The notes beneath the pieces are model-generated. The model was not told the DNA's origin. It was given only the letters and a program-made list of their open reading frames with translations, and made no database searches. From Psammoneis japonica (taxonomy: Eukaryota): DNA of 64,000 nucleotides. The stretch's first letter is position 1; every line of letters begins with the position of its first letter. The position numbers and the translations under genes were made by a program. The stretch covers positions 62,001 to 126,000 of the forward strand of contig QPGO01000202.1 in assembly GCA_008632985.1 (NCBI GenBank). The letters are read 5' to 3'. Below, piece after piece: positions 26,700 to 64,000 of the stretch.

Positions 26700-27140
26700 G
26701 GCACAATTCTGCCTCAGTTTCACAGCCATGCCCTTTGCATGTTTTTCTGAACAGGCTCTGGTGCAGATGTTGCCTTTCTCTGATGGGTGATGATGGTTCC
26801 TGCCTGCCTGTTCAGACCCATTTTTTTGTCAACATGCCTTCATTCTATGATCACAGCAATCTTGTGAAGTGGAAATGATTGACGTTGAGCCCTTTTAGTT
26901 TGTTTGCTTGGCACTCTTCTGGGCAATGTTTGTTCTCACATGCAAAGTTGCTGCACCAGTTTTGGCTCAAATTCTGCAAGTCATTTCAGATGGATGACTC
27001 ATCAAACCACCAAAACTGCACTCGCTCTCCACACCCCTCAAGTGTCAATGACCCCCCCTTCTCCCCACTGTCCATTTGAGTTTCCTGCTTTATGTGGTGA
27101 ACAATCTTCCGTGGTTGCTGTTTTCAGAAGTTTGAAGATG
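26700..27140 (+). repeat. Dispersed repeat X, copy 1 (unclassified)
   Basis: Homologous to the reverse complement of 53270-53666 and to 58790-59103 (e.g. gcacaattctgcctcag...gatgttgcctttctctgatgg...tcaatgacccccccttctccc). Confidence 0.8.
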
Positions 27141-42100: not shown

Positions 42101-43516
42101 TGACCGGAGCCTGCTGTGGTTTCCATGTTTGAGTTTTTGTGGTGGATGCACCATGGTCGATCATGCATGGAGCAGATTTCGTGGGTCTTCTGGGAACATC
42201 ATTGGGTTGTTCTTTTGCGTTGATGGCAAGAATTGATCCTCCCATGTCGTTTTCATCTGCTCTGATGCTTGTTGACACGGAAACAGTCAACAGAAGCATC
42301 CCGGCACTCACTTCCTTTCATGATGTTTGTTTCAGCGAGCTTTTTGGTTTGTTGTGGTTGTCATGCACCAGCATGACGTCGATGTCAGGTGCCAAGTTGC
42401 GCAGCGTTGCACAACTTTGGCCAGCTTTTTGACCTTTTTCACAAAAAGCATTTCAAGCCCTCTTGAATTGACCAAAAGCATCTTGAAATCTGGGAGGAAC
42501 AAAGAGCTCAGACACCAATGCTGAGGTCTGCATGCGTGCCCCTGCACATGTGGACCTTGGCACCAAATTTCATGTGTGTGAAATTTGTCGGCGTCTGGGT
42601 GCATTTTCTTTGTTCCGAGCCTTGGGGAGCAACAGAGACTCCCTCTTGAACACAAAATGTGCGAATCACAAATTAATTTGCAGGGGCAAACAGCTCAAAT
42701 TTTCACACCATGAAAGCATGCGCAAGGTCTCTGAGTGCTTCATCTTCACTTCAGACAAGCAAGTGGTGCAGCTTTGACAACTGCAGGTCTGCAGTTGATG
42801 TGAAACAACAAACCAGCTGGACTGTTGTCATCACACAGAGCCATGTGATGTTTTGTTTGTGAGGAAAAGTGGCACAATCATCCAAAAAGGTCATTTTCAT
42901 TGAAATCTTGTGATGCGCTGGCATGAGCTGCAGTCACAAGAAGGCAGTTTCTTTTAAAAACAACGATTTCTTGTCCTTTCTTGTGCTTCACATCTTTTCT
43001 CAATCAAAGCAGAAAGAATCCCTGCACCTTGAATTGCACAAGAGGATGCTGCCCACATTCCAAAGACGGTCTTTGAGGGCAACAAGGGTCATTTCTAGAC
43101 TCTCCAAGCGGCAATTGTGCAGGGATTTGAAATTTGTTGCAAATTTTGCAATGTCACAAATTTTGCATTTTGGCAGCTGGCCAGGGCCCTGTTCACACAA
43201 AATTTGCAAAATTGAATGAATTTTTGCAATCTGTCTGTCCATCTGGTTGCACCATTTGGTTGTTTCTTCATCGGGGGTGTCACTCATCATCCATGCAAAT
43301 GAAGCAGTTGTTCATGCTCCAAGACTGAGTGTGCCTCCTGTCCTCTGACACATGAACATCAAACAATGCATCAGATGTCAGGAAGCCATTGGAGAAGGGT
43401 TGTTGCTGAGACTCCCTTCTCCTTGGCTCTCCAACACAATTGATGAAATTGACAAGGACAACAAGCCAGACCTTGTGCTGCAGCTTCAGTCATTGTGACA
43501 GCTTGTCCCCTGGTGG
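39200..43516. other. TpA-depleted degenerate repeat-derived DNA, unclassified
   Basis: Near absence of TpA and only short Cys/His-rich spurious ORFs; no motif recognised. Confidence 0.55.
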
Positions 43517-43883
43517 TGCACCATGCTCGAAGAACGAGCATGAATGAAAGTAGAGTCAAGCATGAAAAGTGAAAATTGTGAGATAAAATTTTGCTCTGTG
43601 ATTTTTGGTTTCTCCGAACGAGTTCTCAATGGCCCAAAGCTTCTGCACTGCTTCTGCAGACCAAAGGCCTTTTGGAGAACATGTTCGTGACAACAGATTG
43701 TCCTGATGCGATTGCCATTGACACGCAAGATGTCAACATCGTCAATCGATCGCATTTGCAATTTTCGACATCCGATCAACTCTGTGTGATCGTTCTGTCC
43801 TTTGCACGCATCCACGACTGTGGTGCGATTGACGTGTAAACAACACATGATTGTGGACATGTGCATGACAGTCGCACACTGCA
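43517..43883 (-). repeat. 3' LTR of the degenerate Gypsy element
   Basis: TGCA termini; on the minus strand it is preceded by a PPT GGGGAGGTGAG (43884-43894) and the integrase 3' end. Confidence 0.88.
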
Positions 43884-46800: not shown

Positions 46801-49800
46801 CTTGTTTCTCTCCTTCCCCCAAGGAAGTGTTCACACAAATGATGATTCCTGGACTGGCACAAACCATTTCTGCCTTTTTTCTGGGCTTCCTGACATCCAG
46901 CAGAGCACACAATTCGTGAACAGACCCAAATTGTTCTTCGGATTCACTCTGGATCATCCAATCAAATTGGCAATTTTCTTCACTGAGGGCATCAGAATCC
47001 AATTCTTTGCCCTCATGCTCTTTTTCTTTGTTCGAGGAACTCGCTTTGAGTGTTTTTTGAACTGCCTGATCAATCATGAGACGTTCAACTCTTTTTTTGC
47101 GAGTGGCATTTTCGTTGTCGCGATGCCACGTGCGATCGCCATTTGAACGGCGCCCTTTCGGATCACACTCAATGTGTCCACGGCTTTCTTTCACCAGCTC
47201 ATTTTCAGAATGGCTTCAATCCATGATGCAGGTGTTCTTTTTTTCAAAGATTGCACCTTTTGCTCACTTTGGATTATTCAGGTGCCACATGGGAGACCAT
47301 TTTTGGAACCAAATTTGGAGCCATTTTGGTTTTGGAATCAATTCTGCCATCAGAGCCTGATTTGACATGGTTCATTGACATGGACGTCATGAACGACTTC
47401 CAAACAACTCAAAACTCAGTCAGCTCATCAAGAGCATGTTCCCCAGCATTTCAGCATTTTGGACAGTCGACTGATGCTGCCATCCTTGCGGTGCAAGTGA
47501 CAGCTGATGGCTCGCAGCTCGGTTTCCCGCTAGATTCAACTTAGAGTTGGATGTCAAACGTCATGCCTCTGAAGACCAATTGTCCAGGTGCAGCTTGCGC
47601 GGCAGCATGATGCGCAGAACGTGCTGCAAATGCCGCTGCTGACAACATTCCAGCATGTCTTTCGAGAGTGCCTTGTTTGTCTCACGCTCTGCACATGTGT
47701 GTGTGGCATTGCATCGAGCATTCTCTCTGACGCTCTTTTGTTCATGTGAGCACAAAGACCAATTGTCCTGTTGTTTTTTCATTGTGTCGAATGCACACAG
47801 CATGTTGCCCAGTGCTTGATGTGCGCTCTTGTTTGTGGCATTCACTTGCCTGCTGGTGGATTTCGTGCAGTTTGGCGGGCTTGCTTCACATTGTGCCACA
47901 TTGCTCTGCTGCACCACCACGTTTCTTAAGCAGCAATTGACGATGGTCAAGGACATGACCATTTCGTCTTGACAATCAATCCTGTGATGGTTGTGAGTTC
48001 AATTGTGGATTTTTTGTGCTTCAACCATCTGTCAGTTGGATTTCAATCATCATTTGGACATTTCTTTTTGACGTGCCGGTGTCATTTTGTCATTCCAAAG
48101 GCACTGCTCAATGGGAACATTTTGAAAATGACCCGTGAAGTGCAACCCACAAATCAATTGAGGACGCCTGTAGAATCCACACGTTTTTGCACTGAAACTG
48201 TCATGTTCACACAATTTGTGCAAAAATGGACTTGACTGTTGTCGGGTCAGGCACATTTTTGCAATTGTGTTGAAGAAAAATGCGCCTGATCAGAAAACAG
48301 TCAAATCCATTTTTCGCAAAGTTAAAATTCACTGAGGACAGACAGACAGACTTGTCTTGGTGCTGTCCCACACGATTTGTGCGCAATGACCCTGCAGCGC
48401 GAAAGATTGCCATTGTCGTGCACTGGTGGATAAATGTCCATTTTTCTTTTCCTTTTTTCTGAATCTTTGGCACATCTCGTGTGTCGACATGACAAGTTGT
48501 TTGTGTCTTGCCTCGTACATTGTGCAGTGCAACCACCGCACGGGTGTTGTGAGATTGTCTTTTGCCAGTGTGAAGTGGACACTGCAATGCCGCACACCAA
48601 TCTGTCACAGAGTTTTTTTCTAACTGTCCTTTAAAATGAGGCGATTTCATCCTTGTGACATGAGCATTTTACGATCTCACTCGCCTCCACGAAAAGTGTT
48701 CGTGTGACATGTCGCGTCCAACAATTTTGGAGGGAAATGTCTTTGTCCCATTTTAACGGTGGGACATTGTCGCAGGATTCAATTTTCTTCACAGCAAGTC
48801 GGCTGATCGTGTCGATCGACAGCATCGCGACAATGTTTGCCTTGCCCTCGATTGACATTTGTTCGGGACTGAAGTTTTCCATTGTAAGTCGCCAACGTGT
48901 GACTTTTGTCCGTTGTGTCTCATGATCTGCAAATTTTTTAATCTGTTGGCCAAACAGTGTGTTTTGGAATTTTATGAGTGTTTTCACTGTGGACAGAAGT
49001 TCTTTTTTCCGTTGCAATGCATGACATTGAAATGCGTGTGTGACAACAATGCAGTTTTTGATTTGATGTGCTCCATGTTTTCGGAGACTTTTTGTTCCGC
49101 ACTTGCACTTTTGCCGTTTGACCTTCATTGAGGTGAATCTGGCTAGCGTTGCACAGGAGATCGTTGAGACTACGTGTTTTGACAGCAATGACGTGCAACA
49201 ACAAGTTGTCGCAGTGTTGTTTGCATTTTTCTCGTGTTGCAATTGCTTGAATCGCCTCCATTTCCTTTGCAATCGAATGCCATGTTGGATGTCAAACGTC
49301 ATGCCTCTGAAGACCAATTGTCCAGGTGCAGCTTGCGCGGCAGCATGATGCGCAGAACGTGCTGCAAATGCCACTGCTGACAACATTCCAGCATGTCTTT
49401 CGAGAGTGCCTTGTTTGTCTCATGCTCTGCACATGTGTGTGTGGCATTGCATCGAGCATTCTCTCTGATGCTCTTTTGTTCATGTGAGCACAAAGACCAA
49501 TTGTCCTGTTGTTTTTTCATTGTGTCGAATGCACACAGCATGTTGCCCAGTGCTCGATGTGCGCTCTTGTTTGTGGTGTTCACTTGCCCGCTGGTGGATT
49601 TCGTGCAGTTTGGCGGGCTTGCTTCACATTGTGCCACATTGCTCTGCTGCACCACCACGTTTCTTAAGCAGCAATTGACGATGGTCAAGGACATGACCAT
49701 TTCGTCTTGACAATCAATCCTGTGACAGTTGTGAACTCGATTGTTGATTTTTTGTGCTTCAACCATCTGTCAGTTGGATTTTAATTGTCATTTGGACGTT

Positions 49801-52562
49801 TCTTTTTGACATGCCGGTGTCATTTTGTCATTCCGAAGGCACTGCTCAATGGGAATCTTTTGAAAATGACCCGTGACGTGCAACCCACAAATCAATTGAG
49901 GACGCCTGTAGAATCCACACGTTTTTGCACTGAAACTGTCATGTTCACACAATTTGTGCAAAAATGGACTTGACTGTCATCGGGTCAGGTGCATTTTTGC
50001 AAATGTGTTGAAGAAAAAATGCGCCTGATCAGAAAACAGTCAAATCCATTTTTTGCAAAGTTAAAATTCACTGAGGACAGACAGACAGACTTGTCTTGGT
50101 GCTGTCCCACACGATTTCTGCACAATGACTCTACAGCGCGAAAGATTGCCATTGTCATGCACTGGTGGACAAATGTCCATTTTTCTTTTCTTTTTTTTTC
50201 TGAATCTTTGGCACATCTCGTGTGTCGACATGACAAGTTGTTTGTGTCTTGCCTCGTACATTGTGCAGTGCAACCACACGGGTGTTGTGAGATTGTCTTT
50301 TGCCAGTGTGAAGTGGACACTGCAATGCCGCACACCAATCTGTCACAGAGTTTTTTTCTAACCGTCCTTTAAAACAAGGCAATTTTGTCCTTGTGACATG
50401 AGCATTTTTTGATCTCGCTCGCCTCCACGAAAAGTGTTCATGTGACATGTCGCGTCCGACAATTTGGAGGGAAATGTCTTTGTCCCATTTTGACGGTGGG
50501 ACATTGTCGCAGGATTCAATTTTCTTCACAGTAAGTCGGCTGATCGTGTCGATCAATGGCATTGCAACGACGTTTGCCTTGCCCTTGATTGACATTTGTT
50601 CGGGACTGAAGTTTTCCATTGCAAGTCGCCAACGTGTGACTTTGTCCATTGTGTCTTGTGATCCGCAAATTTTTTAATCTGTTGGCCAAACAGTGTGTTT
50701 CGGAATTTTATGAGTTTTTTCACTGTGGACAGAAGTTCTTTTTTCCATTGCAACGCATGACATTGAAATGCGTGTGTGACAACAATGTAGTTTTTGATTT
50801 GATGCGCTCCATGTTTTCGGAGACTTTTTGTTCCGCACTTGCACTTTTGCCGTTTGACCTTCATTGAGGTGAATCTGGCCAGCATTGTACAGGAGATTGT
50901 TGAGACTGCGTGTTTCGACAGCAATGATGTGCAACAACGAGTTGTCGCAGTGTTGTTTGCGTTTTTCTCGTGTTGCGATTGCTTGAATCGCCTCCATTTC
51001 CTTTGCAATCGAGTGCATGTCATTGCGTGTGGAAGTCTTGACAGTTCATTTCAAGTTAAATGGTGAAGGACTTTTGTTGTCAAACTTCCAAGCAACTGTT
51101 CCAGTCATTTGAATGCCGCACCAAGCCATCACTTGTGCAGGTGACATTTTGAAGTCACTTTTTGTCAGGCACAAACAATCGTGTGCAGTCGTTCTGACAA
51201 CTTCAAACCTGTTGTGAGTTCACTCATGTGTTGTTTAAAAACATCTGGGGCTCCACAGCTTCTCACAGGAAGTCCACAGCACTTTTTTTCTCCCCACGGC
51301 ATGATTTTTGTGTTGGCACGACATGTGCTTTTTTAATTTGATGTGACAGTGTCCCACATTCAAATCGAGTGAGGTCACATGTGTGAACCTTCTAGTTTCT
51401 GAAGCACATCCTGAACATTTGGCAGAGGATGCGGCGCACGTGCTGGCCTCTTGTTCAGTTCACGAAAGTCGGGTGGAAACCGAGCTTTGACCATTTTTCT
51501 GTTTTTTAAAGGTTGGAGCTGTCCACTCAGAACTGTTTGTTTTCCTTTGGGACTTTTAGCTTACAGAGCCTTTCAATCTCCTTGCGAGTCGCCTCCAAGG
51601 CTTGTGGAAACAGGAAACCTTTTGCGTGACACGGTTTTGAGCCAGCGAATCATTTCTGCCTTTTTCCCAGGCTTCCCAACACCCAGCAGAGCACACAATT
51701 CGTGAACAGACCCAAATTGTTCTTCGGATTCACTCTGGATCATCTGATCAAATTGGCAATTTTCTTCACTGAGGGCATCAGAATCCAACTCTTTGCCCTC
51801 ATGCTCTTTTTCTTTGTTCGAGGAACTCGCTTTGAGTGTTTTTTAAACCGCCTGATCAATCATGACGTTCAACTCTTTTTTTGCGAGCGGCATTTTTGTC
51901 ATCGTGATGCCACGTGCGATTGCCATTTGAACGGCGCCGTTTCGGATCACGCTCAATGTGTCCATGGTGTTCTTTCGCCAGCTCATTTTCAGAATGGTTT
52001 CAATCCGTGATGCAGGTGTTCTTTTTTCAAAGATTGCACCTTTTGTTCACTTTGGATTGTTCAGGCACCACACAGGAGACCATTTTTGGAACCAAATTTG
52101 GAGCCATTTTGGTTTTGGAATCAACTCTGCTGTCAGAGCCTGATTTGACATGGTTCATTGTCATGGACGTCATGAACGACTTCCAAACGACTCAAAACTT
52201 AATCAGCTCATCAAGAGCATGTTCCAGCATTTCAGCATTTTGGGCAGTCGACTGATGCCACCATCCTTGTGGCGCGAGTGACAGCTGATGGCTCGCAGCT
52301 CGGTTTCCCGCTAGATTCAACTTAGAGTCGATTGAAGGGTCACACAGATGCTCTTCATTGACGTCTTGGGTCCAACAGAGGCTTTCTTGCTGTTGAGCTG
52401 CTCTGGTTTCTTCAGATCATCTTGAAAATGGCAACTCTGATTCTGAAGTGCAGTTCTTGGAAAGACATGAGACAAGAGACTCTTGAGGCACTTTCCAACG
52501 GTTCCATCTTGCTCTTTGGACTCGAGGTTTGTCGATTCGGTCTCTAAAAAATCTCCAACAGT
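43517..52562 (-). mobile_element. Degenerate Ty3/Gypsy element with internal tandem triplication (units ~44172-47545, 47546-49280, 49281-52562)
   Basis: Colinear with 61273-64000 (integrase, RNase H 'KELLSTVKTL', 'RWRLTMENFSPE', RT 'EAIQAIAT'). Three copies start at the same 'gttggatgt.aaacgtcatg' point. Many indels. Confidence 0.88.
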
Positions 52563-52929
52563 TGCAGCATGCGACTGTTGTGTGCACATTCATAATTGTG
52601 TGTTGTGTGTGTGTCAATCGCACCACAGTCGTGGATGCGCACAAAGGACAGAACGATCACACAGAGTTGATCGGATGTCGAAAATTACAAATACGATCGA
52701 TTGACGATGTTGACATCTTGCGTGTCAATGGCAATCGTATCCGGACAATCTGTTGTCACGAATATATTCTCCGAAAGGCCTTTTGTCTGTGGAAGCAGTG
52801 CAGAAGCTTTGGGCCATTGAGAACTTGTTCGGAGAAACCAAAAATCACAGAGTAAAATTTAATCTCATAATTTCCACTTTTCGCACACTGTTCTACTTTC
52901 GTTTGCACTCGTTCTTCGAGCATGGTGCA
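52563..52929 (+). repeat. LTR of the same family, opposite orientation to the adjacent internal domain
   Basis: Full-length homology to the other LTRs; flanks CAGT and GCTT do not form a TSD. Confidence 0.85.
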
Positions 52930-53270
52930 GCTTGTCACTGCAACTCCCATTCCAGCAACATCTCTCAGATGAACAGTGACTGTGACATGCCACAGCATTT
53001 TGGTGACAACCCCTCATTTGCTTGCAATTTGGTGGAACAAGAGAATGTCCAGGGGACAGTGGAGGCTGTCATGGTGGTCATGGAGGAAAGGCATCATGGC
53101 AAGGCAACTGCTGCTTGCAAATGGTGCAAGGACATTTCTCAGCACTTGGCTCATCCTGTGTTTCAGAACATCCCTCACTGTGGAGGAAAGCATGGCATTT
53201 TTGGCATGCTCCCCTGGGAGCTGTTGCATGCCTTGCACTTGGCTTTTTGCAAGTGTCTGCTTCAACAATG
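52930..53270 (+). mobile_element. Plavaka-like transposase fragment
   Basis: ACHCNSH...DCDMPQHFGDNP...SQHLAHPVFQNIPHCGGKHGIFGMLPWELLHALHLAFCKC resembles the Plavaka C..C/DNP...GI....P.ELLH...LG..KY pattern once His/Cys are reverted to Tyr. Confidence 0.6.
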
Positions 53271-53666
53271 CAGGAAACTTGAACAGACAACAGGGAGAAG
53301 GGGGGGTCATTGATGCTTGAGAGGCATGGAGAGAGACCAGTCGGCAGTTTGATGAGTCATCTGTCTAAAATGCCTTGCAGAACATGCAGAGTTTGCACTG
53401 AAACCTGTGTGGAAACCTTGCATGTGAGAACAACAAATGCCAAGAAGAGTGCTGAGCAAATGAGCCAACAGGGCTTGACGCCAATTGTTTTCCACTGCAT
53501 GAGATTGCCAATGATTGTAGAACAAAGGCATGTTGACAAAAGAGCACATCTGAACAGGCAGGTGAGAACCATCACCACACCATCAGAGAAAGGCAACATC
53601 AGCACCAGAGCTTGTGCAGAAAAACATGCAGAGGGTGCGGCCGTGAAGCTGAGGCAGAATTGTGCA
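53270..53666 (-). repeat. Dispersed repeat X, copy 2
   Basis: Reverse-complement homology to 26700-27090. Confidence 0.8.
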
Positions 53667-53770
53667 ATCATCCAAAAACAGCAGAGCACTGCAATGAAAC
53701 TGCATTTTTTGAAGACAGCCACGTGCACTTCATTCAAATCAACCAAAAGTGGAGTTAGAAAAACCAGTTG

Positions 53771-54138
53771 TGCAGCATGCAACTGTTGTGTGCATGTTTG
53801 TGATCACACATTGTTTGTGTGTCAATCGCACCACAGTCGCGGATGTGCACGAAGGACAGAATGATCACACAGAGTTCATCGGAAGTCAAAAATTGCAAAT
53901 GCAATTGACAGACAATGTCGACATCTCATGTGTCAATGGCAATCACATCCCAACAATCTGTTGTCATGAACAACTTTTTCGAAAGGCCTTTTAGTCTGTG
54001 GGACCAGCACAAGAGCTTTGGACCATTGAGAACTCATTCGGAGAAACCAAAAATCACAGAGCAAAACTCAATCTCACAATTTCCACTTTTTGCACTTTGC
54101 CCCACTTTTGTTTGTGCTTGTTCTTTGAGCATGGTGCA
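53771..54138 (+). repeat. Solo LTR, heavily mutated
   Basis: TGCAGCATGC...GCATGGTGCA termini and full-length homology; no clean TSD (GTTG / ACTG). Confidence 0.85.
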
Positions 54139-54281
54139 ACTGTTGTGGATGACACAAAGTTGGACAAGACACTTGAAGTTTTGCAAAAAAATTGTGGTTG
54201 TCCATTGCCAGTGATGCCAACACACAATCTGAGGATGAAATTGGCCATTTGGACTTGGATGAGTGCTCCTGACAGGAGGCC

Positions 54282-55180
54282 TTGGATGAACTGTTTGAAT
54301 TGACAGAGAAAAGAGTGGTCAAAATGGATGGGAAGGAGTGGTCTGCAAAGAGTGGGAAGGCCCCCAAAACTTCAAGGAAATGCCAAGTGCATTTTGGCAA
54401 CTGGGGCAATCCAAGGTTGAGTGTTCCCATTCCACACACTCCAAGAAATGCAGACATGGCTTGGCATGGCTCTGTCAGGCTCATCCAAAAGCATTTGGAA
54501 AATGAGGACAAGGAGATGGAAGAGCAAAAACAAGGTGCATCATTGATCGCTTGGGCAAGGCAGTGCCAAACACATTCTGCAAGGCTTGGTCCATTCACAA
54601 AGAGTGGCTTCATTGAGTGGCAAAAGAGTTGGCCAATGGCAACAAAATGTTGTGCTCAATGGAGGATGAGCACCTGCACACAACCCTTGCCATCAACAGT
54701 TGCTGTGGTGGTGGGGTTGCTGGCATTCATGTGGACACACACAATGCATCCATGCATTGGAGGGGATTGCCAGACTTTCATTGCAACCCAACCGGCAATG
54801 CAGACATTGCCCTCCTTGTGTGTGCTCCAGTCAAGAAAGGTGTGTTGAAGCCAATCTTGGTGTTGCAACATGCCAAAACCATGACTTTTTTCAATGCAGG
54901 ATCCTTTTGTCATGGAGCAATTCATGTGGGGATGCACCTCACTCATTTGAACAGTTTGTTCTTCTGTGCAAGTGAGTCAAACAAATTGCTCAGGCCCAAG
55001 CCAAAGTGGGTTGGCAATCACAGCAAGAATGGACAACATCTGTTCCTTGCTTGGCACACAAAGCAAAACTTGCCGATGGTGGATGCAACGGATGAGGTGC
55101 TGAAAACACAACATGGAACCTTGTTTGTTCATGATGAAGATTGGCAATGGGTGCAATCAAATTTGAAAGAACAGAAATGA
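54282..55180 (+). pseudogene. Degenerate 2OG-Fe(II) dioxygenase, TET/JBP-like
   Basis: HTTLAIN...AGIHVD (HxD at 54728-54736), TFFNAGSFCHG (distal His 54911-13), GQHLFLAWHTK (CAT at 55037-39 restores to Arg CGT). One frameshift near 54550 and a TGA (probably from CGA) at 54614-16. Confidence 0.55.
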
Positions 55181-55399
55181 GTGCAATGACCTGAGCAGCG
55201 ATGGTTCCGACAAGGATTGGACATGTCTGCACAAAAGGTCAGACAGAATGGAACCAGTTCATGACTGCAGTGAGGCATCCAAAATTTGGCAACTTCAGGA
55301 AAGGTGACAACTGCAATGACAATGCACACAAGGAGCTGCTTTTGCAGACAACAGACAGGGTTGACACAGTTGGAACATTCCAAAAAGGACACAACTGAG

Positions 55400-57230
55400 A
55401 CACATCAAACTCCAGCAGATCCGTTGGCCTCATCAAACATGTCATCATTGTCTGCCATAGAATGCTCCAGCTCCTTGGTTGCATGTCACTTGTTTCCATT
55501 CAGTTGCACCTCATTGTCCAGCTCGGAGGGTGGGAAAATGACTTGCTCCACTGGGAAAAGGTTGCTGTGGTCTGTTCCCTTGGTGCGTGACAGAAAATCA
55601 AGAGTTGGTCCAACCAGGACATCCATTGCAACAGCAGCCAAATCTGCATTTGTGGGGCAAAAGCTGGCTGATTTGGTTTCTCCACCTCCAAATTGTTGCT
55701 TCAGGAAAGAAAGGCCCATGTTCACTGAAAGTGCCATCCAATGCACGGTTGGAGGTCATGACAATGTTGCGCCACTTCATGAAATGTGCAATGTCTGGGG
55801 CAGCATGCTTCTGCTTGGATTTAGCCAAAGGGACATTGGCAATGAAGTGATTGTGCAAACGCGCACATTTTTGAACAACACCATCATTGGCTGGATCACT
55901 GCTTTTGGGTGCAGCTGGCATGTCATCCATGTTGCACAGGCTGTCAATCAGATCATCCTCATGATGCCAGAACACATTGGCAAGGAGAAACTTTGCAGTG
56001 ATCAACTGGGTGAGTGCCTCCTGAGCAGCACTTTCCATGCAGTGGGTCACAGCTGGCTCATTGTTCTTGGCGTAAAAGTTGGTGACTTTGTCGTGGCTCT
56101 GACTGCAGTCTTTCATTGGCATTCAAGTGCAACAAAGGCTGACAGCAGCAGCAAGAGGCAAGAAAAAATCTGCCCACAGAGATGGGGCCAACCATCCAAA
56201 GTGGCAGGTGGTGCAGAGACAGGCTGCATTGTGACGACACGCAACAGCACTGTTTTCCTCAACTGTTGACACAGTGCCAGCAGGAGGGGCAGTGAACAAG
56301 TCAACAGGAGTGTGCTGGCCTGCAAAAAAGACAAATGAACCACAAACCCATCATGAGTCACACAGAGAAGATTCAAAGAAGAGGGGACAAGGATTTGCAT
56401 CACCTGCATCACCATGATGGGAGCCACAGACTCCACAAAGGACTGTGGGAAACAAGGCACTGCCGGCCTTTTTGGGTGGCAGAGTGTGGTTGATTTGTGT
56501 TCTGAGACAGGAAGCAAAGGTGTTTTGTTCTTGATTCATGAAGTTGAGGGCCAAGGGGCCAACCTTCTCCCAAAACTTTTGACAAACTTCAGGTTTGTTG
56601 AATTCATTGTCAGACCTGTCCTTGTCATTTTTTGGGTTTTTTGGGAAGACATGTTCCCAAACCATCAAGGCAAAGGGACATTTGGAGTTTGCACCAGCAT
56701 CCAGGAGTGGATGGCAATTCACAGTGTTGCCAATCTCTTGTTTGGATGGAAAACCCAGAGAGAACAGAGCAGCATGACCCACCTTTGAGTTGCCCACTTT
56801 CTTCACAAAGTTGGTCTCCAAATTTGTCATTTTGCTGGCATGAAAGGTCTGTTTCTGAGCTTTCTAGAGAGAGGCAACGGCCTTGTTGGCGGTGACAATT
56901 TTTGCACCACAGGCGTTGTGCTTTTGCTGCAGTTGCTTGCACATCTTTTTGTTGTGGTTTTTGCATGGGCTGCACATCCTCCAGCAAAACAAAAGCCACA
57001 CTCTGCAATCATTGCCAGACATTTGGTTTCACTTTGTCATGCTGCTTGAGAGAAATTCAACATCTTCTTTTTGAATTTGAGGGGAACAGTTCTCAGACAC
57101 ATCATCAGAGGAGTCGGCTTCTTCATTGATGGAGGCTGCAGCAGCAGTGGCAGCTGCTGGGTCATTGACTGGTGGAGCAGCTGTGGATGACATGTTCCAG
57201 CCCTGGGTGGAAGCTTGTGGTGCTGACATG
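55400..57230 (-). pseudogene. Degenerate ORF of unknown function, convergent with the TET/JBP-like relic
   Basis: Consecutive protein-like minus-strand segments (57229-57029, 56830-56351, 56122-55598) broken by stops and frameshifts. Confidence 0.35.
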
Positions 57231-58789
57231 TGACATGATCATTTTTGTCGTCTGTTGCATGTTTCACACTCACATTTCTGCATGTGATCTTTCAAAAAAT
57301 TGTTCCACACTCCCTGTTTTGCAAAGCCCCAGATGTTTCATTTGGCACATTTGTGGGAACAACAATGCACCAGGCACATCCTTCAATGTCTGAAGAATGC
57401 ACCTGGCTGAGTGAGAACTGACTTGCTTCAATCATGAACAAGTTTGTGCGTTCTCAAAATTGCCTCTTTTTCTGTTGGCAATCATTGACATTTTCATTGC
57501 CTGACAATTTTACTGCGGAGCTTGCACGCAGAATTGCATGGGCCCAATGTCACATGGATTCCCACCTGCATCTGGAGCATGTCGGACAAAGAGCCTTGAC
57601 ATCACAGAGGGCCAGTCCTGGAGAGCCTTGCCTGGGCTGCCCAGAAGGACGAACTTGGCAACCTCCACCATGACCTCCACCATGGCTGCCAGCACCACTG
57701 GCACGACTGGCATTGTTGGGGCCAGCAACTTGTTGGTTTGGCTTCTTCCATTTTTTGGGCGGCATGGTTGATGACAGCACAAAATGGAAAAAGGGGTTGA
57801 TTTAAGTCCTGGAAATGGGAGTGCAAAGGCAGAAGTGTGTGAAATTTCCAATCTTGACAAGGGCACTTTAATGTCATAAAATCAAACTTGTTGAACAAAT
57901 GTGGGATGTCAATGACTGAATGATTCATCAAGGTTTTCAAATCATTCAAACCATTGCATTGTGGCAAAAAGATTGAATTTTAAAATGAAATTGTTGCTGA
58001 GAAAGAGATGCTGGTGGGAATCAACTGATGGCGATGCTCACAGTTTGGCCAAAAAACGAGTTGTCCCTCCCTCACAAGACACAGAAAATGCAAACTCAAG
58101 TTGCAAGCAATGCATGAAAATGTGAGCGGCAGTGACAAGTGGCGGCATTGTGGATGGGACAGAATGAAATGCAGGACACAAGGTGAGAAAGAGGAAACAA
58201 GTGGCTGGTGCATGGAGATCAGGTGCACAACGCAAACAACGGACACTTGTGCACATCTTTGCACACAGAAATCTGCACAGCAACCTGACATGATGCAAAG
58301 GAAGATTGGCAATGGGGAAGGGCACAAAGGCGAGCCAAAGCAATGCATGAGACAAGATTGCAGGAAACACAAGACACACGCAAAAACTGATCATTGGCAC
58401 AAAGGTTTGTCCAGTTGCAGGCAATGCTTTGCCCAGCCAAACAGAAGGAACCTGAGATTGATCATTCATCAGCGGCTGCAACACAGTGGTGTTCACTTCC
58501 CTTCATCTGGTTTGTGCCAATTGACGTTGTGTGAGTTTGTCTTTTTTTTTACTCAAGAACAAGCATGTGAGGTGAGAAATTGGGCTTCATTGGAAAACCT
58601 CTGCTGCTGTGATTTTTTGCACATTCATCACCAACATTCATCCAGTCCATCAAGTTGTGCATGTTTGCACACAAACGTCAGAGCCACACTCACCACTCTC
58701 AAGGCTGCAGCATTCAGATGGGGTGAGATGTGGCTCAACCCCAGAGCCATGATTGCAAACATTTTCAGCTTTGCTGCTGTGCAACGGTG

Positions 58790-59103
58790 TGACCATGATT
58801 CTCACCTGCCCACTCCAACTGCTTCTCTCTTGACACACACTCATTTCATCAAAAGTGAGTGGCATTGAGCCCTTTGGCTTGTTTGCTCATCATCCTTCTT
58901 GGCATTTTTCTTCCTTGTGTGCAAAATTTCCACACAAGTTTCAGCACAATCTCCACACATTCTGAAAGTCAACTTGCCAAACTGTTGACTGCTCTCCATC
59001 CATGCCTCTCAGGTGTCAGTGACCCAAATTCTGTCCATTGTCAATTTAAATTCCATGCTTCACATGGTGAACAACCTTCTGTTGTTGTTGCTCTTCAAAG
59101 TTT
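58790..59103 (+). repeat. Dispersed repeat X, copy 3 (more diverged)
   Basis: ttgagccctttggcttgtttgctc...ctctccatccatgcctctcaggtgtcagtgaccc...tggtgaacaaccttctgttgttgttg matches 26880-27135. Confidence 0.7.
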
Positions 59104-60867
59104 TGTCATCCATTTGCTTCTCCCATTGGCTTTTCCGTGCAAGATCTGGCACTGTTTCTGTGTGACACCACTGACAATCTGTGTGTCACTTCTCTGGACT
59201 GCTTTTGTCCTTGCCAATTGGCCCCCAATGCTGCTTCTTTTCTCTGCTGTTCAATCAAATCCTTCACTCTTTGGGGTGAATGTGCTGCTTCTGTTGTGGC
59301 CTTTCCAGCAAGAGTGCAAGTCATCCTGTGGCATCATTTGATTGTCATCCTGTTTGCTGCTCCCATCAGCTTTTCTGCACAAGACCTGGCACTGTTTCAA
59401 CATGCAACAAATGTTTTTGCCAATGACCTGCTTGTCTCACCTTCACGGCTTCTTTTGCAAACTCTTTTGGCAACCTGTCCAAATGCAATTGTCCTCTGCA
59501 GCTGTGGTGTGCATTCTGTGGCTGTCATCAGCAAGCACACAATGAATTCCTCATGTGAGTCATTCCTTTTCAGTTGTTTTGGTGGGGTGTCACCTTCTGG
59601 TGGTGCCCATTCTGGCCAATCCCATGCAAGCTCCTGCTGCACTGAAACAGTGCACTGGGAGTGTGGGTCAGCTGGCACCGGCGTGGCTGGCAATGGAGTG
59701 ACTGCACTTGCAACTCAGATTTCTTTTTTTTTTTGTTCACTGGGGGTGTGGGTCGCTTGTTGTCAGAGTTGCAGGATGGAAGCACAGCAGCAGTTTAAGT
59801 GCAGATTTTGGGTTTTGCTTTGCTTTGACTGATGCAAGCAGCACAAAGCAGTGTGACTGCCTTGAAGTGCAGATCAGGAAGAGCAGTGTGCAACCCCACG
59901 AATGACATGTTGTGATGTGGCACTTGCTTCACTGTCAATGGAAAGACAGCAAGCAAACCCCTCAACAAGAAGCTTGTGTGCCTCAGGTTGGCAGCAGCAG
60001 CAAAGCACATGCCCCATTCATTCCATCCAATGAGCGGCTTTGACAAAGGCAAGATGCCCAAGTTGTCACTCAGCTGTGCTGAGGCAAAGCAAGGAAGACA
60101 AATCAGATGTTGGTAAAAAGGAACCTCTTCTCCAGTCTCCTGGGATCAGCTGGTCAGGAATTCACTCAAAGTGATGCAGAGATGTTTGTCCAAGCACTGG
60201 TCAAAACAAAGAGAAGAGAGGCAGAGTTGGGTGCAATGCAAACTGACATCTCCAAGAGAGCTGCTTTTGCTGCCAGTTTGTGTCTTGAAACAACAAAAAA
60301 AATGACAAAAGACAGAAAAAGAAAGTTCTGTGGTTGCATCAACTCTGTCAATGCCAGCAGCAACAAAGGGAAAAGCAAAAAAAATCTTTGTTCACCCATG
60401 GTGTGACCCATGTTGTGCCAGTTGCATCGTGACAAATGGCTTGTGCACAATCACATCTGGCACACATCAACCACCTTTGTGTGCATGTTGGTCAGGAGGG
60501 GTGCAGAGGTGCACTTGCAGGATTCAATGGGGTCCCTGTGTGCAAGTTCATGGTGCAGTGTCTGCCCTTGGGCAGATCAAAACATGGTTGCAGGCACACA
60601 CTGTCAAAGCCATGTGCATCCATGGTGTTTGTTGGGCTGTTCTCAACTTGAGAAATGTTGTTCACTTTGAATGCTGTGTCCTGTTTGCCAGTCTTCTTGT
60701 TCAGCAGTTGGAGTCAATCCACCACTCAGCTGTCATGAGCAATGCAGCACTTGTTCTTTGCATCCTTTAAACTCAGGATGTTTGCAGCTGTGTTCTGTGA
60801 TCCAAACTTCATGTCTCCTCATCCAGTCATGGTGGCATGGTGCTTGTCCAAGGCACACCAGTGGACA

Positions 60868-61246
60868 TGCACTATGCTCGAAGAACGAGTGTAAACGAAA
60901 GTATGACGAAGTTCAAAAGGTGAAAATTATGAGAATCATTTCTGCGCAATCATTTTGGGTTTCTCCGAACGGGTTCTCAATAGCCTGAACCTTTTGCACT
61001 GCTCCTACAGACAAAAGGCCTTTCGGAGAATATGATCGTGACGACAGATTGTCCGGATACGATTGACATTGACACGTAAGATGTCAACATCATCGTACGA
61101 TCGCATTTGCGATTCTCGACATCCAATCACTTCTGTGTGACTGATCTGTACTTCGTACGAACCCACGATTGACGTACGATTGAAACATACTTTTATTTAA
61201 TATATAGATATACATATATAATACGTACATGACAACGCACATTGCA
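60868..61246 (-). repeat. 3' LTR of the youngest Gypsy element
   Basis: TGCA termini; PPT AGGGAGGCGAA (61247-61257) lies just after the integrase stop; retains a (TA)n tract at ~61187-61230. Confidence 0.92.
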
Positions 61247-64000
61247 TTCGCCTCCCTAATTGCACATTAGAGTCAGTCGTTAAACGGCATTATTCGACGA
61301 ACATTGACAGTGTCAATAACGTTACCGCGTTTGATCTGTACTGTGCCATTAGTATGTACCGTTGTTATTACATACGGTCCAACATAGGGCTGTTCTAATT
61401 TTTGCGAGTCTTTCTCGAGTAGTATCTTTTCTCCTACTCTGTACGTGTAAGGAGTACGTCGAGCATTCTCTCGAGCGTTATTTTTATTTATGATTTCTTG
61501 TTTTCGCTGCTGGATTAATTTCCAGTCCGCGACATGTTGGACGTTAAATATCATGTCTCTATTGAAGACTAGTTGTCCTGGTGTAGATTGCGTAGTAGCA
61601 TGATACGTAGAACGTACTGCAAACGCTACCGCTGATAGTGTTCCAGCGAAAGGATCCTCAGTATCTAGAGGTGTATGTTGCAAATCAAATGTATGGAGCA
61701 TGTTCCCCAGCACTTGATGTACGCGTTCAACAATTGCGTTTGCTTGTGGATTTCGTGTGGTTGTAGGCTTGACTTTAATGCCATGACCATCTTGCACCAT
61801 TTCTCTAAATTGGTGTCCGATGAACTCACTTCCACGGTCACATGTAATTGACGATGGCCAAGGATGTCCACTTGGCCATGTTCGTTCTAACAGTCCAGCC
61901 ACAGTTGTGGACTCCTTGTTTGGGATTTCCACAACTTCAAACCATCCGGTTGCTGGATCGATCGCAGTTGAACATTTCAGGACTGGGGGTTTTTCCTTTC
62001 CCTTGCGACGCACTTTGTATGGCCCAACAAGGTCCACACACAGTCGTTCCCATGGTGCGGATTCTGCGCACTTGGGAGGTAAATGTCCACATTTCTTGTG
62101 TTTCTTTTTGAATTTTTGGCACGTCTCACATCTCGACACGTGTTTTCGTATGTCTTCACGTGAGGTGGACCACCGTGGGTGTTGTGAGATTGTTTCTTCT
62201 GTTCGATTTATGCCAGGGTGAAGAAGGTGCGCATGATGCCAATCCATCACTGCCTTTTGCAATGTCCTCGGGACGACAATTTCATCCTTGTGACATGTGA
62301 GCAACCGGTCTCGCTCGCCTCCACGAAAAGTCTTCGTATGAAACGTCTTGTTTGACAATTGGGAGAGAATGTCTTTGTCCCATTTTTGTTCACAATCAAG
62401 AACTTTGCAATTTAACGGAAAGACATTGTCGCAGGATTTTGGTGGGGACCTTTTCAGCTGGCTCTTCTGTGCTGAGGGTTTCCATGGGTTCTATTTTCTT
62501 CATGGCAAGTCGGCCAATCGTGTCTGCGACAATGTTTGCCTTGCCCTCAAGGCATGTCATTTTGGGACTGCACTCTTCTGTCATTAGACGCCAATGCATG
62601 ACTCTGTCCGTTGTGAAATTTTTGTGTGTGAGATTTTTGTGATCCGCACGCATGTTTGTCTGTTGGCCAAACAGTGTGTTGCGGAACTCTTTTAACGTCT
62701 CCACTGTGGACAACAGCTCTTTTTCCGTTGCAGCACAACGCGTCTGCGCTCCATTCAGCTTGCGGCTGTAGAAGGCAATTGGTCGGTTTTTCTGAGCAAT
62801 GACCGCCCCCAATTTGAGAATTGCTGGCATCGGCACACATCTCAAAGGGGATGTTAAAATTCGGGTGTGACAATGGCATGTCTTTGGAGATGATGCGCTT
62901 CATGTTTTCGAAGGCTTTTTGTTCTGTTTCGGTCCATTGCCACTTTGCTTGGGTAGAAGTGAGTTTGGCTAAAGGAGCTAAAACATGAGATCGTCGAGGC
63001 CACATGTCTCGACAGTGGTTGATCATGCCGATAAAGCGTCGCAATTCCTTGCGAGTTTTAGGAGTTGCGATCGCGTGAATCGCTTCTACTTTTTTTGGAA
63101 TCGGACTGATGCCCTTGCGGGTGATGTGAAAGCCCAGATAGTCTGCTTCGGGTTTAGCGAAAAAGGACTTCTCGGCGTTGACCTTCAATCCGGCTTGTTC
63201 CAGGCGTAAGAACACCGTTTCAAGCTTCTTGAGGTGGTCTTGAAAATCACTTTTTGTAAGACACAATGTGTCGTCAACATAAGTTCTGACGAACTCCAGA
63301 CCTGCCATGAGCTCACTCATGTGCTCTTGGAAAATATCTGGAGCTCCACAGATTCCCATCGGGAGTCTACAGTGCTCACATTTGCCCCAAGGCATGACGA
63401 TCGTGCACAAGCAACGTGCATGCGGCGTCAATTCGATGTGATAGCATCCCATGTTTAAATCTAGGGACGTTGCATGCATGAAGCCTTCAAGCTTCTGTGG
63501 CATGTCCTGAACATTGGGTGGAGGAAACGGAGTGCGAATTAACCTCTCACTTAGCTCACGAAAGTCGGATGAGAACCGAACTCTGCCATTTTTCTTGGGT
63601 TGAACAAAGGTTGGAGCCGCCCATTCAGAACAATTTATTTTTCTTGAGACTTTCAACTTGCACAGTCTTTCAACCTCCTTACGAGCAGTTGCCTCCAAGG
63701 CTTGTGGTGCGGGAAATGGTTTGGCATGACACGGACTCACGCCCGATTTCAACTTTAAATCCACCGGTTTCCCGGTCCATTTGCCTGGAGAACCATCGAA
63801 AAGGTTTTCAAATCTTTTTAAGAGGAAGTTCAGCTGCTTCTGCTCTTCAGGAGTTAGATGAGCAGCTGCTGCGGTCACATTGTTGAGGTTTGCAGCGTGA
63901 TGGTCTGAGTCAAGGATCCGATTGACCCTGTCATTAAGACCAATCACTGCATGAGATTCCTCAATGTGATCGGCAATCAACTTGAAAACATCGGCATCGA
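60868..64000 (-). mobile_element. Ty3/Gypsy LTR retrotransposon (RT-RNaseH-integrase), runs off the window; missense-hypermutated, frameshifts at ~62820 and ~62400
   Basis: SEWAAPTF, DFREL, LDLNMG.YH, RLPMG, YVDD, DAS, EKELL, DH, HHCC zinc finger, D-D-E core, GPY module; Gypsy domain order. Confidence 0.95.

What the first reader, a model, noticed from the sequence alone, without database searches (positions are those of the whole stretch)
61750..63980. Gypsy pol inactivated by systematic missense without nonsense codons
Seen: the frame is open for ~385 codons (63980 to ~62820) with only 3 Tyr. Conserved motifs are altered exactly as TpA loss predicts: PCHA (PYHA), FMHAT (YAT), GCYH (GYYH), GKCEH (GKYEY), YVDDT (YIDDI), NHCRD (NYYRD), TRCAATE (RYTTTE), EECSP, KKCGHLP and ITCDRG. 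GAG ATG TGT GCC GAT (62843-62829) derives from GAG ATA TAT ACC GAT by three consecutive TA>TG changes on one strand, hinting at strand-coordinated runs. T>C/A>G changes cannot turn a sense codon into a stop, so such copies look intact to ORF finders.
Basis: partly seen in the sequence, partly recalled or inferred. Interest (0 to 1): 0.78.

Follow-up and report, generated by a model that had tools for sequence, protein, structure and literature searches.

The report
TpA-erasing hypermutation of diatom retrotransposons
A Gypsy retrotransposon gene in what looks like a diatom genome has been disabled mainly by a mutational process that turns nearly every TA dinucleotide into TG or CA, a repeat-scrambling signature so far reported only in one unrelated alga.

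Summary
Window 61276-63998 (minus strand) encodes a Ty3/Gypsy pol (RT, RNase H, integrase) with no in-frame stop. Of 24 Tyr positions conserved in relatives, 17 are Cys (TGY) or His (CAY) here. TpA is depleted in all three codon phases, so the cause is mutational rather than selective.

The signature extends well beyond this element. About 30 kb of the window (1-4.8 kb, 26-29.5 kb, 39.3-60.9 kb) has TpA observed/expected of about 0.06 and CpG of about 0.37, with TG and CA near 1.7-1.8 and boundaries sharp to tens of bases. Neighbouring host genes are normal (TpA 0.55, CpG 0.97).

Copy-to-copy comparison shows a transition-only process. It hits TpA on both strands and acts independently in each genomic copy, including adjacent tandem duplicates, so it works on integrated DNA and not on RNA.

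- The pol also carries two frameshifts.
- Strand-coordinated runs are not supported.
- The 3' 0.9 kb of the element (3' LTR plus integrase C-terminus) is unmutated.

The same TpA>TpG/CpA hypermutation was reported in a 2026 preprint for integrated viruses in Bigelowiella natans. My searches found no report for diatoms or LTR retrotransposons. The enzyme is unknown.

The parts
62805..63998 (-). Gypsy element A pol, frame 1: reverse transcriptase and the start of RNase H. It runs off the window end. It is open, Tyr-poor and partly hypermutated.
   Evidence: (RVT_1 1.9e-16).
62507..62815 (-). Pol frame 2: RNase H. It is reached through a frameshift near 62813, in a run of G.
   Evidence: (RT_RNaseH 1.2e-17). 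table 4: contigs of other copies are one base shorter at 62813.
61276..62439 (-). Pol frame 3: integrase (H2C2 zinc finger and rve core). It is reached through a second frameshift near 62444.
   Evidence: table 4: one base fewer at 62444/62445 in other copies.
61777..64000 (.). Hypermutated part of element A: TpA o/e 0.25, CpG 0.81, GC 47.5 %.
60868..61776 (.). Unmutated 3' part of element A (integrase C-terminus, TA-rich polypurine region, 3' LTR): TpA o/e 0.89, GC 41.4 %, 5 Tyr in 167 codons.
60868..61187 (-). 3' LTR of element A, about 320 bp with TG...CA ends. Other copies lie at 43517-43884, 52563-52932, 53771-54141 and 2853-3180.
   Evidence: table 7: 15 contigs diverge at 60868. table 2: depth 20,000-50,000 against 6,000-9,000 for the internal part.
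43517..47547 (-). Copy B of the same Gypsy family, colinear with A and heavily hypermutated (TpA o/e 0.10, CpG 0.64).
47546..52331 (-). Partial tandem duplicates of copy B (47546-49285 and 49284-51020 are 95 % alike, 99 % after collapsing transitions). They diverged in place almost only by transitions.
39207..60867 (.). Largest TpA-erased block, which includes copy B. TpA o/e 0.00-0.19 per kb, and TA-free runs up to 1466 bp (53992-55458). Element A is inserted at its right edge.
25728..29843 (.). Second TpA- and CpG-erased block between host genes. Both edges are sharp.
   Evidence: It shares repeats with 53265-53665 and 58850-59103.
1..4499 (.). Third TpA-erased block at the window start. It contains an LTR copy at 2853-3180.

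Best explanation
Element A is a nested, fairly young copy of an abundant Ty3/Gypsy LTR retrotransposon in a diatom-type genome. A regional, DNA-level hypermutation is erasing it. The process converts TpA to TpG or CpA, which is an A>G change on one strand or the other.

The process acts on integrated chromosomal copies, on both strands with equal probability, and independently in each copy. It runs almost to saturation. Its domains follow repeat DNA, have edges sharp to tens of bases, and spare adjacent host genes. A slower CpG>TpG/CpA decay follows in the same domains and most simply reflects deamination of 5-methylcytosine in methylated transposons.

Because TAY Tyr codons are prime targets and T>C or A>G can never make a stop, the pol accumulates Tyr>Cys/His and other missense changes while its frames stay open. 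Two frameshifts add to the damage.

Shown here: the signature, its context specificity, its strand symmetry, its independence between copies, and its regional limits.

Inferred: that it is an enzymatic, targeted process of the kind measured directly in Bigelowiella natans mutation-accumulation lines. The most likely chemistry is deamination of adenine in DNA by a TadA/ADAT-type deaminase. That enzyme's natural tRNA substrate, A34, follows U33 (recalled knowledge). I give that chemistry about 0.4.
For: Context specificity. I compared the unmutated part of A (60868-61647) with copy B. Of 58 TA dinucleotides, 27 became CA, 20 became TG and 4 were kept. Of 51 CG, 24 became TG or CA.
- Per-site transition rates were TA 0.43, CG 0.25, and all other pyrimidine contexts 0.03-0.14.

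Transition-only divergence. Identity between copies rises from 90.4 % to 99.1 % when purines and pyrimidines are collapsed (44727-46226 against 50142-51642). For the LTR pair it rises from 87 % to 98 %, and for A against B from 76 % to 92 %.

Independent data. In contigs of DNA run X1, the family differs from the window at 371 transition places and 37 transversion places.
- Of the 40 listed places (368 more were not shown), 20 classify as TA<->TG/CA, 12 as CG<->TG/CA and 8 as neither.

Both strands are hit.
- Tyr codons became 9 His and 8 Cys.
- Polarised TA sites became 27 CA and 20 TG.

The process acts per copy and in place.
- Two mutated copies differ by TG against CA at 37 sites.
- At conserved Tyr 33 the window has His while 96 % of family depth reads Cys.
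- The adjacent tandem duplicates differ by 71 transitions out of 78 changes.

The process is regional. Block edges lie at 25727, 29844, 39206, 60868 and 61776.
- Pooled blocks have TpA 0.06, CpG 0.37, TG 1.69 and CA 1.82.
- Genic DNA has 0.55, 0.97, 1.16 and 1.14.

The cause is mutational, not selective. TA per 100 codons by phase is 0.78 / 3.12 / 2.60 in the window. The mean over 80 relatives is 4.29 / 8.50 / 6.85.

Order of events. Blocks fall into grades: A at TA 0.25 and CG 0.81, copy B at 0.10 and 0.64, and the oldest blocks at 0.00-0.07 and 0.06-0.22.

Precedent. The Bigelowiella natans preprint 10.64898/2026.01.13.699255 reports 230 of 231 de novo mutations in two integrated viral regions as A>G or T>C, with all of these on TpA. 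They appear in only some lines, and the authors name an ADAT2-like candidate. I read the abstract, Results and Discussion.
Against: - No enzyme, no base-modification data and no real-time mutation data exist for this organism. Only the fixed outcome is seen.
- No whole genome was available. The link to repeats, the genome-wide extent and the presence of a deaminase gene could not be tested.
- The sharp switch inside element A at about 61776 is not predicted by a simple per-site process. It needs either tract-wise action or recombination between a mutated and an unmutated copy.
- The most mutated blocks show no recognisable protein domain: 0 of 59 ORFs of at least 110 aa hit Pfam. Their transposon origin rests only on shared LTR-like repeats.
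- Run X1 may be the sample the window was assembled from, so it is not certainly independent. It consists of contigs, not reads.
- Adenine deamination and thymine oxidation give the same strand-symmetric outcome, so sequence cannot separate them.
Confidence: 0.85

Rival explanations
1. The retrotransposon RNA is edited before reverse transcription by an ADAR- or ADAT-type A-to-I activity, which prefers U before the edited A. Each new insertion would then arrive already mutated.
For: The TA>TG context matches the -1 U preference described for ADAR and for fungal A-to-I editing (Discussion of the preprint; abstract listing of PMC11156358). Two local clusters of three same-strand A>G changes lie on the coding strand.
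Against: Editing of the packaged sense RNA would give A>G on the sense strand only.
- T>C on the sense strand is equally common here: 9 Tyr>His against 8 Tyr>Cys, and 27 CA against 20 TG.
- Adjacent tandem duplicates cannot arise by retrotransposition, yet they diverged with the same signature.
- LTRs and unrecognisable blocks are erased alike.
Confidence: 0.04
2. The same regional DNA-level process operates, but its chemistry is oxidation of thymine at TpA by a TET/JBP-type dioxygenase to 5-hydroxymethyl- or 5-formyl-uracil. That base mispairs with G and gives T>C. The mutation would then be a by-product of a silencing mark rather than of a deaminase.
For: The outcome is strand-symmetric, so T>C is as good a description as A>G. 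In dinoflagellates a TET/JBP enzyme makes 5hmU, and the mark is linked to transposon silencing (PMC11572971: title, abstract start and found passages only). A TpA preference of 5hmU in dinoflagellates and the mutagenicity of 5-formyluracil are recalled, not checked.
Against: No data on base modification exist here. The passages I searched in PMC11572971 do not mention TpA or diatoms.
Confidence: 0.2
3. Ordinary neutral decay: a genome-wide dislike of TpA plus CpG methylation acts for a long time on dead repeats, with no dedicated process.
For: TpA is under-represented even in host genes (o/e 0.55). CpG decay of methylated transposons is ordinary. Diatom transposons are CpG-methylated (PMC9998398, abstract and found passages).
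Against: - TpA is lost before CpG and far faster than any other T or A context (0.43 against 0.03-0.09 per site).
- Transversions remain rare while TpA is already about 95 % gone.
- GC rises from 41 % to 47.5 %, against the usual AT-biased spectrum.
- The state changes within tens of bases, inside a single element.
Confidence: 0.05
4. The Cys and His residues are native features of this Gypsy lineage, or element A is a cDNA recombinant that inherited its 5' two-thirds from a mutated parent and its 3' end from an active one. In that case nothing would have happened at this locus itself.
For: The sharp switch at about 61776 lies inside an otherwise continuous integrase frame. Template switching between co-packaged RNAs is common in retroelements (general knowledge). 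At 63730, 23 % of family depth shares the window's derived letter.
Against: The native-feature version is rejected: 0-6 % of 120 relatives share the window's residue at the nine replaced Tyr columns of the RT. The recombinant version does not remove the hypermutation. It only moves it to a parent copy.
Confidence: 0.15

Closest known systems
TpA>TpG/CpA hypermutation of integrated NCLDV and virophage DNA in the chlorarachniophyte Bigelowiella natans (Mettrop et al., bioRxiv 10.64898/2026.01.13.699255, 2026; abstract, Results and Discussion read)
   Same: Transitions are confined to TpA and give TpG or CpA depending on the strand. The process is regional and limited to foreign or selfish DNA. 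Low-TpA coding sequences are enriched in reverse transcriptase and DDE domains. It works against the usual AT-biased spectrum.
   Different: - The host here is a diatom-type stramenopile.
- The targets are multicopy LTR retrotransposons.
- Erasure is near saturation (o/e 0.03-0.1, against 0.45 reported for the viral region).
- A CpG>TpG/CpA decay accompanies it. The preprint text contains no 'CpG', 'diatom' or 'retrotransposon'.
- Surviving TpA are enriched in TTA/TAA.
- Only the fixed outcome is seen here, not the rate.
Repeat-induced point mutation (RIP) of ascomycete fungi
   Same: It is a transition-only, dinucleotide-specific, both-strand, per-copy scrambling of repeated DNA in the genome. 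It has sharp limits and makes transposons unrecognisable.
   Different: RIP changes C>T mainly at CpA and so creates TpA and lowers GC. Here TpA is destroyed and GC rises. RIP readily makes stop codons, and this process cannot. Dependence on duplication and on a sexual stage was not testable here.
A-to-I editing by ADAR (animals) and TAD2/TAD3 (filamentous fungi), and tRNA A34 deaminases TadA/ADAT2-3
   Same: A>G with a U/T immediately 5' of the edited base.
   Different: Those enzymes act on RNA. Here the change is heritable, lies on both DNA strands, and arose in place.
APOBEC3-type hypermutation of retroviruses and retrotransposons
   Same: Host-driven mutational inactivation of reverse-transcribing elements.
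   Different: APOBEC gives G>A on the plus strand (C>U on minus-strand cDNA) in one round and creates stops. The signature here is A/T>G/C at TpA, on both strands and cumulative.
CpG decay of 5mC-methylated transposons (diatom DNMT5-dependent methylation, PMC9998398)
   Same: The CpG>TpG/CpA component in the same blocks (CpG o/e down to 0.02-0.2).
   Different: It explains only the slower, secondary component and has no bearing on TpA.

Membership tests
Ty3/Gypsy (Metaviridae-type) LTR retrotransposon | Pol domain order RT, then RNase H, then integrase | tested here: met
   RVT_1, RT_RNaseH, Integrase_H2C2 and rve lie in that order on the minus strand. The region is colinear with full-length relatives of 1444 and 1485 aa.
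Ty3/Gypsy (Metaviridae-type) LTR retrotransposon | RT catalytic YxDD box and integrase zinc finger plus core | tested here: met
   YVDD is present (translation). H2C2 scores 1.8e-13 and rve 9.6e-10.
Ty3/Gypsy (Metaviridae-type) LTR retrotransposon | Flanking LTRs with TG...CA ends | tested here: inconclusive
   The 3' LTR (60868-61187) has TG...CA ends and occurs as 4 more copies in the window. The 5' LTR lies beyond the window end.
Ty3/Gypsy (Metaviridae-type) LTR retrotransposon | Intact, potentially active pol | tested here: not met
   There are two frameshifts. The window differs from relatives at 42 of 213 conserved RT columns, against a mean of 11.3 and a maximum of 34 for relatives.
TpA-targeted hypermutation of foreign DNA (as in B. 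natans) | Changes are almost only A>G and T>C transitions | tested here: met
   Identity between copies reaches 99 % after collapsing purines and pyrimidines. Run X1 shows 371 transition places against 37 transversion places.
TpA-targeted hypermutation of foreign DNA (as in B. natans) | Restricted to TpA, giving TpG or CpA | tested here: met
   47 of 58 TA became TG or CA. The rate is 0.43 per site against 0.03-0.09 for T in other contexts. A separate CpG component also exists that was not reported for B. natans.
TpA-targeted hypermutation of foreign DNA (as in B. natans) | Confined to delimited regions of foreign or selfish DNA, sparing host genes | tested here: met
TpA-targeted hypermutation of foreign DNA (as in B. 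natans) | Elevated de novo mutation rate measured in real time, active only in some lineages | not testable with these tools
   Only contigs of one run were available. No raw reads or mutation-accumulation lines exist for this organism.
Fungal RIP | C>T at CpA producing excess TpA and lowered GC | tested here: not met
   TpA is erased (o/e 0.06) and GC rises from 41 % to 47.5 %. C in CpA changes at only 0.06 per site.
RNA editing before retrotransposition (ADAR/ADAT) | A>G on the sense strand only | tested here: not met
   9 Tyr>His (T>C on the sense strand) against 8 Tyr>Cys. 27 CA against 20 TG.

The most novel reading that the evidence does not exclude
Diatoms possess a dedicated genome-defence system that edits DNA at TpA (adenine deamination or thymine oxidation). 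It is directed at retrotransposon chromatin, acts on both strands until TpA is erased, and is shared with chlorarachniophytes. On this reading it is an ancient SAR-wide functional counterpart of fungal RIP. It silences elements by missense without ever creating stop codons, and it leaves kilobases of stop-poor pseudo-ORFs behind.
Probability: 0.5. Interest if true: 0.85.

Novelty: new member of a known kind. Interest (0 to 1): 0.7.

Why it matters
- It would be a second, phylogenetically distant case (stramenopile against rhizarian) of a TpA-specific DNA hypermutation described only in one 2026 preprint. That argues for a widespread eukaryotic defence or chromatin-linked process rather than an oddity of one alga.
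- It shows the process acting on LTR retrotransposons and running to saturation. It also shows the order of events, TpA first and CpG later, and a possible extended context in which TAA/TTA are spared.
- It offers a partly mutated element with a sharp internal boundary as a natural substrate for rate measurements.
- There is a practical hazard. Erased DNA has almost no TAA or TAG (2.5 and 0.9 per kb per strand, against 8.1 and 8.7 in genes). It therefore fills with long ORFs in all six frames: 59 ORFs of at least 110 aa in the four stretches scanned (about 22 kb), and none has a Pfam domain. Gene finders may call these as genes, and repeat finders may miss them. Collapsing transitions restores the homology.

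Tried and rejected
- Whole-genome access: none is held for this window. I could make no genome-wide scan and no search for deaminase or TET/JBP genes.
- Tandem repeats as a cause of the skewed composition: none were found.
- Earlier notes of this scan by place, words and sequence: nothing was found.
- Pfam on 59 ORFs of at least 110 aa from the most erased blocks gave 0 hits. tblastn with full-length relatives found pol remnants only in 43974-47080, 48766-49008 and 50533-51643, besides element A.
- Sequencing runs: one holder (X1, contigs only) and no RNA holder were listed. Contigs cannot show sub-clonal variants, so the test for ongoing mutation at the remaining TpA could not be made.
- Strand-coordination tests all came out negative:
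  - 17 Tyr codons: z = +1.77, meaning more alternation than chance.
  - 47 polarised sites: z = +0.31.
  - Three LTR copies: z between -1.58 and +0.21, on 7-11 sites each.
  - 37 discordant sites: z = -1.07.
  - Neighbours concordant 8 of 13 (within 6 nt), 7 of 20 (7-20 nt) and 7 of 13 (beyond 20 nt).
- The metagenome scan for hypermutated relatives was biased towards intact copies, because the peptide patterns used need unmutated motifs. The 80 loci serve only as an unmutated baseline. The lowest TpA o/e among them was 0.43 (L005).
- Literature: the TpA-related and diatom-repeat term searches found no report of this signature in diatoms. Subscription journals and bioRxiv supplements were not searchable.
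- A base-calling artefact at modified bases was considered. It is unlikely. Contigs of run X1 with word depths of tens to hundreds reproduce the erased flank 60500-60867 with only 4 listed letter differences and 4 listed one-base indels. The changes also differ between copies.
Full report
WHAT IS THERE

The minus strand of 61276-63998 encodes the pol of a Ty3/Gypsy LTR retrotransposon. Pfam finds RVT_1 (1.9e-16), RT_RNaseH (1.2e-17), Integrase_H2C2 (1.8e-13) and rve (9.6e-10), in that order.

The region is colinear with full-length relatives of 1444 and 1485 aa, but only across three reading frames: 63965-62805, 62815-62507 and 62439-61276. The pol therefore has two frameshifts and no in-frame stop. 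At both places, contigs of other copies in a public run are one base shorter than the window (62813, in a run of G, and 62444/62445, table 4).

The element runs off the window end, so its 5' half and 5' LTR are unseen. Its 3' LTR is 60868-61187, with TG...CA ends. Fifteen contigs of the run diverge exactly at 60868 (table 7). Four more LTR copies lie in the window.

The RT frame has 3 Tyr, 11 Cys and 17 His in 385 codons. The 120 best relatives average Y 3.8 %, C 1.3 % and H 2.8 %.

- At the 13 RT columns where at least 80 % of relatives have Tyr, the window reads H C H C Y C H Y Y F H C H.
- The RNase H and integrase frames add 8 more Tyr>Cys/His. Together 17 of 24 conserved Tyr upstream of 61776 are replaced, always as TGY or CAY.
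- No relative has more than one Cys/His at the 13 RT columns (18 of 1560 cells).
- Of 42 replacements at 213 conserved RT columns, 16 are single TA>TG or TA>CA changes and 1 is a CpG change. TA-loss changes make up 4.5 % of possible non-synonymous changes, or 15 % of transitions (P 1e-11 and 3e-4).
- Relatives differ from the majority at 11.3 of these columns on average (maximum 34), against 42 for the window.

EECSP is possible (relatives Tyr 54, Phe 51 of 105) and ITCDRG is ambiguous.

Independent support comes from run X1. At 63730, 77 % of family depth reads T, which restores TAT (Tyr) in PYHA. At 63901-63902 other copies read the Cys codon where the window has His, so both states descend from the same TAY.

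IT IS MUTATIONAL AND REGIONAL, NOT A PROPERTY OF ONE GENE

TA is depleted in all three codon phases. The window has 0.78 / 3.12 / 2.60 per 100 codons. The mean over 80 environmental relatives is 4.29 / 8.50 / 6.85.

TpA observed/expected is 0.25 in 61777-64000, below all 80 relatives (mean 0.78, minimum 0.43).

The depletion stops abruptly near 61776. The integrase C-terminus and 3' LTR (60868-61776) have 69 TA in 909 bp (o/e 0.89), 5 Tyr in 167 codons and GC of 41.4 %. Upstream there are 38 TA in 2224 bp and GC of 47.5 % (Fisher 9e-15).

Far stronger erasure covers 1-4.5 kb, 25.7-29.8 kb and 39.2-60.9 kb.
- Per kilobase there are 0-14 TA against about 30-40 in genes, with TpA o/e 0.00-0.19 and TA-free runs up to 1466 bp.
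- CpG o/e falls to 0.02-0.7, and TG and CA rise to 1.3-2.5.
- There are no tandem repeats.
- Pooled values are TpA 0.06, CpG 0.37, TG 1.69 and CA 1.82. Genic DNA has 0.55, 0.97, 1.16 and 1.14. The other twelve dinucleotides barely change.
- Edges are sharp to tens of bases.

The DNA in between carries ordinary host genes: Las1, DnaJ, a ZNF598-like RING protein, EZH2, an LSM protein, an RRM/La-type protein and a GH128-type hydrolase.

WHAT THE ERASED BLOCKS ARE

Self-comparison shows that 43517-47547 is a colinear copy (B) of the same Gypsy family. 47546-52331 holds partial tandem duplicates of it, and LTR copies are scattered in the other blocks.

Collapsing purines and pyrimidines raises identity between copies from 90.4 % to 99.1 %, from 87 % to 98 %, and from 76 % to 92 %. 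Almost all divergence is therefore by transitions.

The oldest blocks have no recognisable domains (0 of 59 ORFs).

In run X1 the internal part of the family has summed word depth of 6,000-9,000 and the LTR 20,000-50,000. The erased flank has 230-500. The family differs from the window at 371 transition places and 37 transversion places.

HOW IT WORKS (INFERENCE FROM ANATOMY)

1. Context. With the unmutated part of A as reference, 47 of 58 TA in copy B are TG or CA and 4 are kept. 24 of 51 CG are TG or CA. Per-site transition rates are TA 0.43, CG 0.25 and other contexts 0.03-0.14.

2. Both strands. Outcomes are 27 CA against 20 TG, and 9 Tyr>His against 8 Tyr>Cys. This excludes editing of the sense RNA before reverse transcription.

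3. Independence per copy and action in place. Two erased copies differ TG against CA at 37 sites. Adjacent tandem duplicates, which cannot arise by retrotransposition, differ by 71 transitions out of 78 changes.

4. No strand processivity. All runs and neighbour tests are negative.

5. Order. TpA goes first and CpG later. Grades run from A (0.25 / 0.81) through B (0.10 / 0.64) to the oldest blocks (about 0.03 / 0.1).

6. Extended context. Surviving TA have T at the 5' side (equivalently A at the 3' side) in 54 % of cases in erased blocks and 45 % in A. In intact DNA the figure is 19-22 %. TAA/TTA therefore appear spared and TAT/TAC favoured, which would explain why Tyr codons are hit so hard. 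This is a lead. Some survivors may be newly created TA.

7. Consequence. T>C and A>G can never make a stop, while C>T and G>A can. Erased DNA keeps only TGA as a stop (25.3 per kb per strand, against TAA 2.5 and TAG 0.9) and fills with long meaningless ORFs.

COMPARISON WITH WHAT IS KNOWN

A 2026 bioRxiv preprint (10.64898/2026.01.13.699255; abstract, Results and Discussion read) reports the same signature in Bigelowiella natans mutation-accumulation lines.
- 231 of 302 new mutations fall in an integrated giant-virus region and a virophage region.
- 230 of those 231 are A>G or T>C, and all of these fall on TpA.
- The rate is about 6e-7 per site per generation, in some lines only.
- Low-TpA coding sequences are enriched in reverse transcriptase and DDE domains.
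- The authors name an ADAT2-like candidate deaminase.
- The text has no occurrence of CpG, diatom or retrotransposon.

The host here is not that alga.
- Genes are long uninterrupted ORFs.
- The best named relatives of its EZH2 and glycosidase are diatoms: Fragilaria crotonensis 69 %, Leptocylindrus 61 %, Cyclotella 60 %, Thalassiosira 58 % and Chaetoceros 54-56 %. Triparma follows, and animals come at or below about 54 % over shorter matches.

The five searches listed under Tried and rejected found no report of this signature in diatoms.

Fungal RIP is the closest functional analogue but has the opposite chemistry: C>T at CpA makes TpA, lowers GC and creates stops. APOBEC and ADAR models fail on context or strand. 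The CpG component fits ordinary decay of methylated transposons. Diatom transposons are CpG-methylated through DNMT5, and many diatoms carry RID-like DNMT4 genes of unknown role (PMC9998398, abstract and found passages).

The chemistry at TpA is open. Candidates are adenine deamination by a TadA/ADAT-type enzyme, whose tRNA target A34 follows U33 (recalled), and thymine oxidation by a TET/JBP enzyme as in dinoflagellate 5hmU (PMC11572971, listing and passages only).

OPEN POINTS

- The internal boundary at 61776 needs the unseen 5' LTR to decide between tract-wise mutation in place and a recombinant cDNA.
- Without the genome I cannot say whether targeting depends on repetition, chromatin or foreignness. 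I also cannot say whether the process is still active.
- Run X1 may be the assembly's own data.

VERDICT

The element is one partly affected member of a large set of retrotransposon copies being erased by a TpA-specific, DNA-level, both-strand hypermutation. This places, in a diatom-type genome and on LTR retrotransposons, a phenomenon so far described once, in a preprint, for integrated viruses in a chlorarachniophyte.

Noticed in passing
window 53992-55458 and the erased blocks generally: Erased DNA has almost no TAA or TAG, so it carries many long ORFs in all six frames. 59 ORFs of at least 110 aa were tested and none had a Pfam domain. This is a trap for gene finders.
   Followed up: partly
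window 47546-49285 and 49284-51020: A head-to-tail tandem duplication of a 1.74-kb piece of the erased Gypsy copy. The two units are 95 % identical, or 99 % after collapsing transitions. The units differ mostly at CpG sites, so the duplication came after most of the TpA loss.
   Followed up: partly
window 61190-61230: A TA-rich stretch (alternating TA and TAT runs, then a short purine run) lies directly upstream of the 3' LTR of element A. It is fully intact although it would be an ideal target, which underlines that this end of the element has escaped.
   Followed up: no
window 12345-13940 and 13733-14911: The host EZH2-type gene (MCSS, CXC and SET domains) is split over two overlapping ORFs in different frames. 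This is either a short intron or a frameshift in the assembly.
   Followed up: no
window 19191-19720: Internal direct repeats of about 95-100 bp lie inside the 599-aa coiled-coil ORF (18637-20436, minus strand). They were seen only in the transition-collapsed self-comparison.
   Followed up: no
window 4961: A single N in the sequence, inside a C-rich, TA-free but CpG-normal stretch upstream of the Las1 gene. That stretch is probably TA-poor by composition, not by hypermutation.
   Followed up: no
L005 and L001 (sediment metagenome contigs): The two closest environmental relatives of the RT (62-66 % identity) have the lowest TpA o/e of the 80 loci (0.43 and 0.59). They may be mildly affected copies from related hosts.
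   Followed up: no
window erased blocks and 61780-64000: Surviving TpA are flanked by T on the 5' side (A on the 3' side) in 45-54 % of cases, against 19-22 % in intact DNA. This suggests that TAA/TTA are poor targets and TAY good ones.
   Followed up: partly
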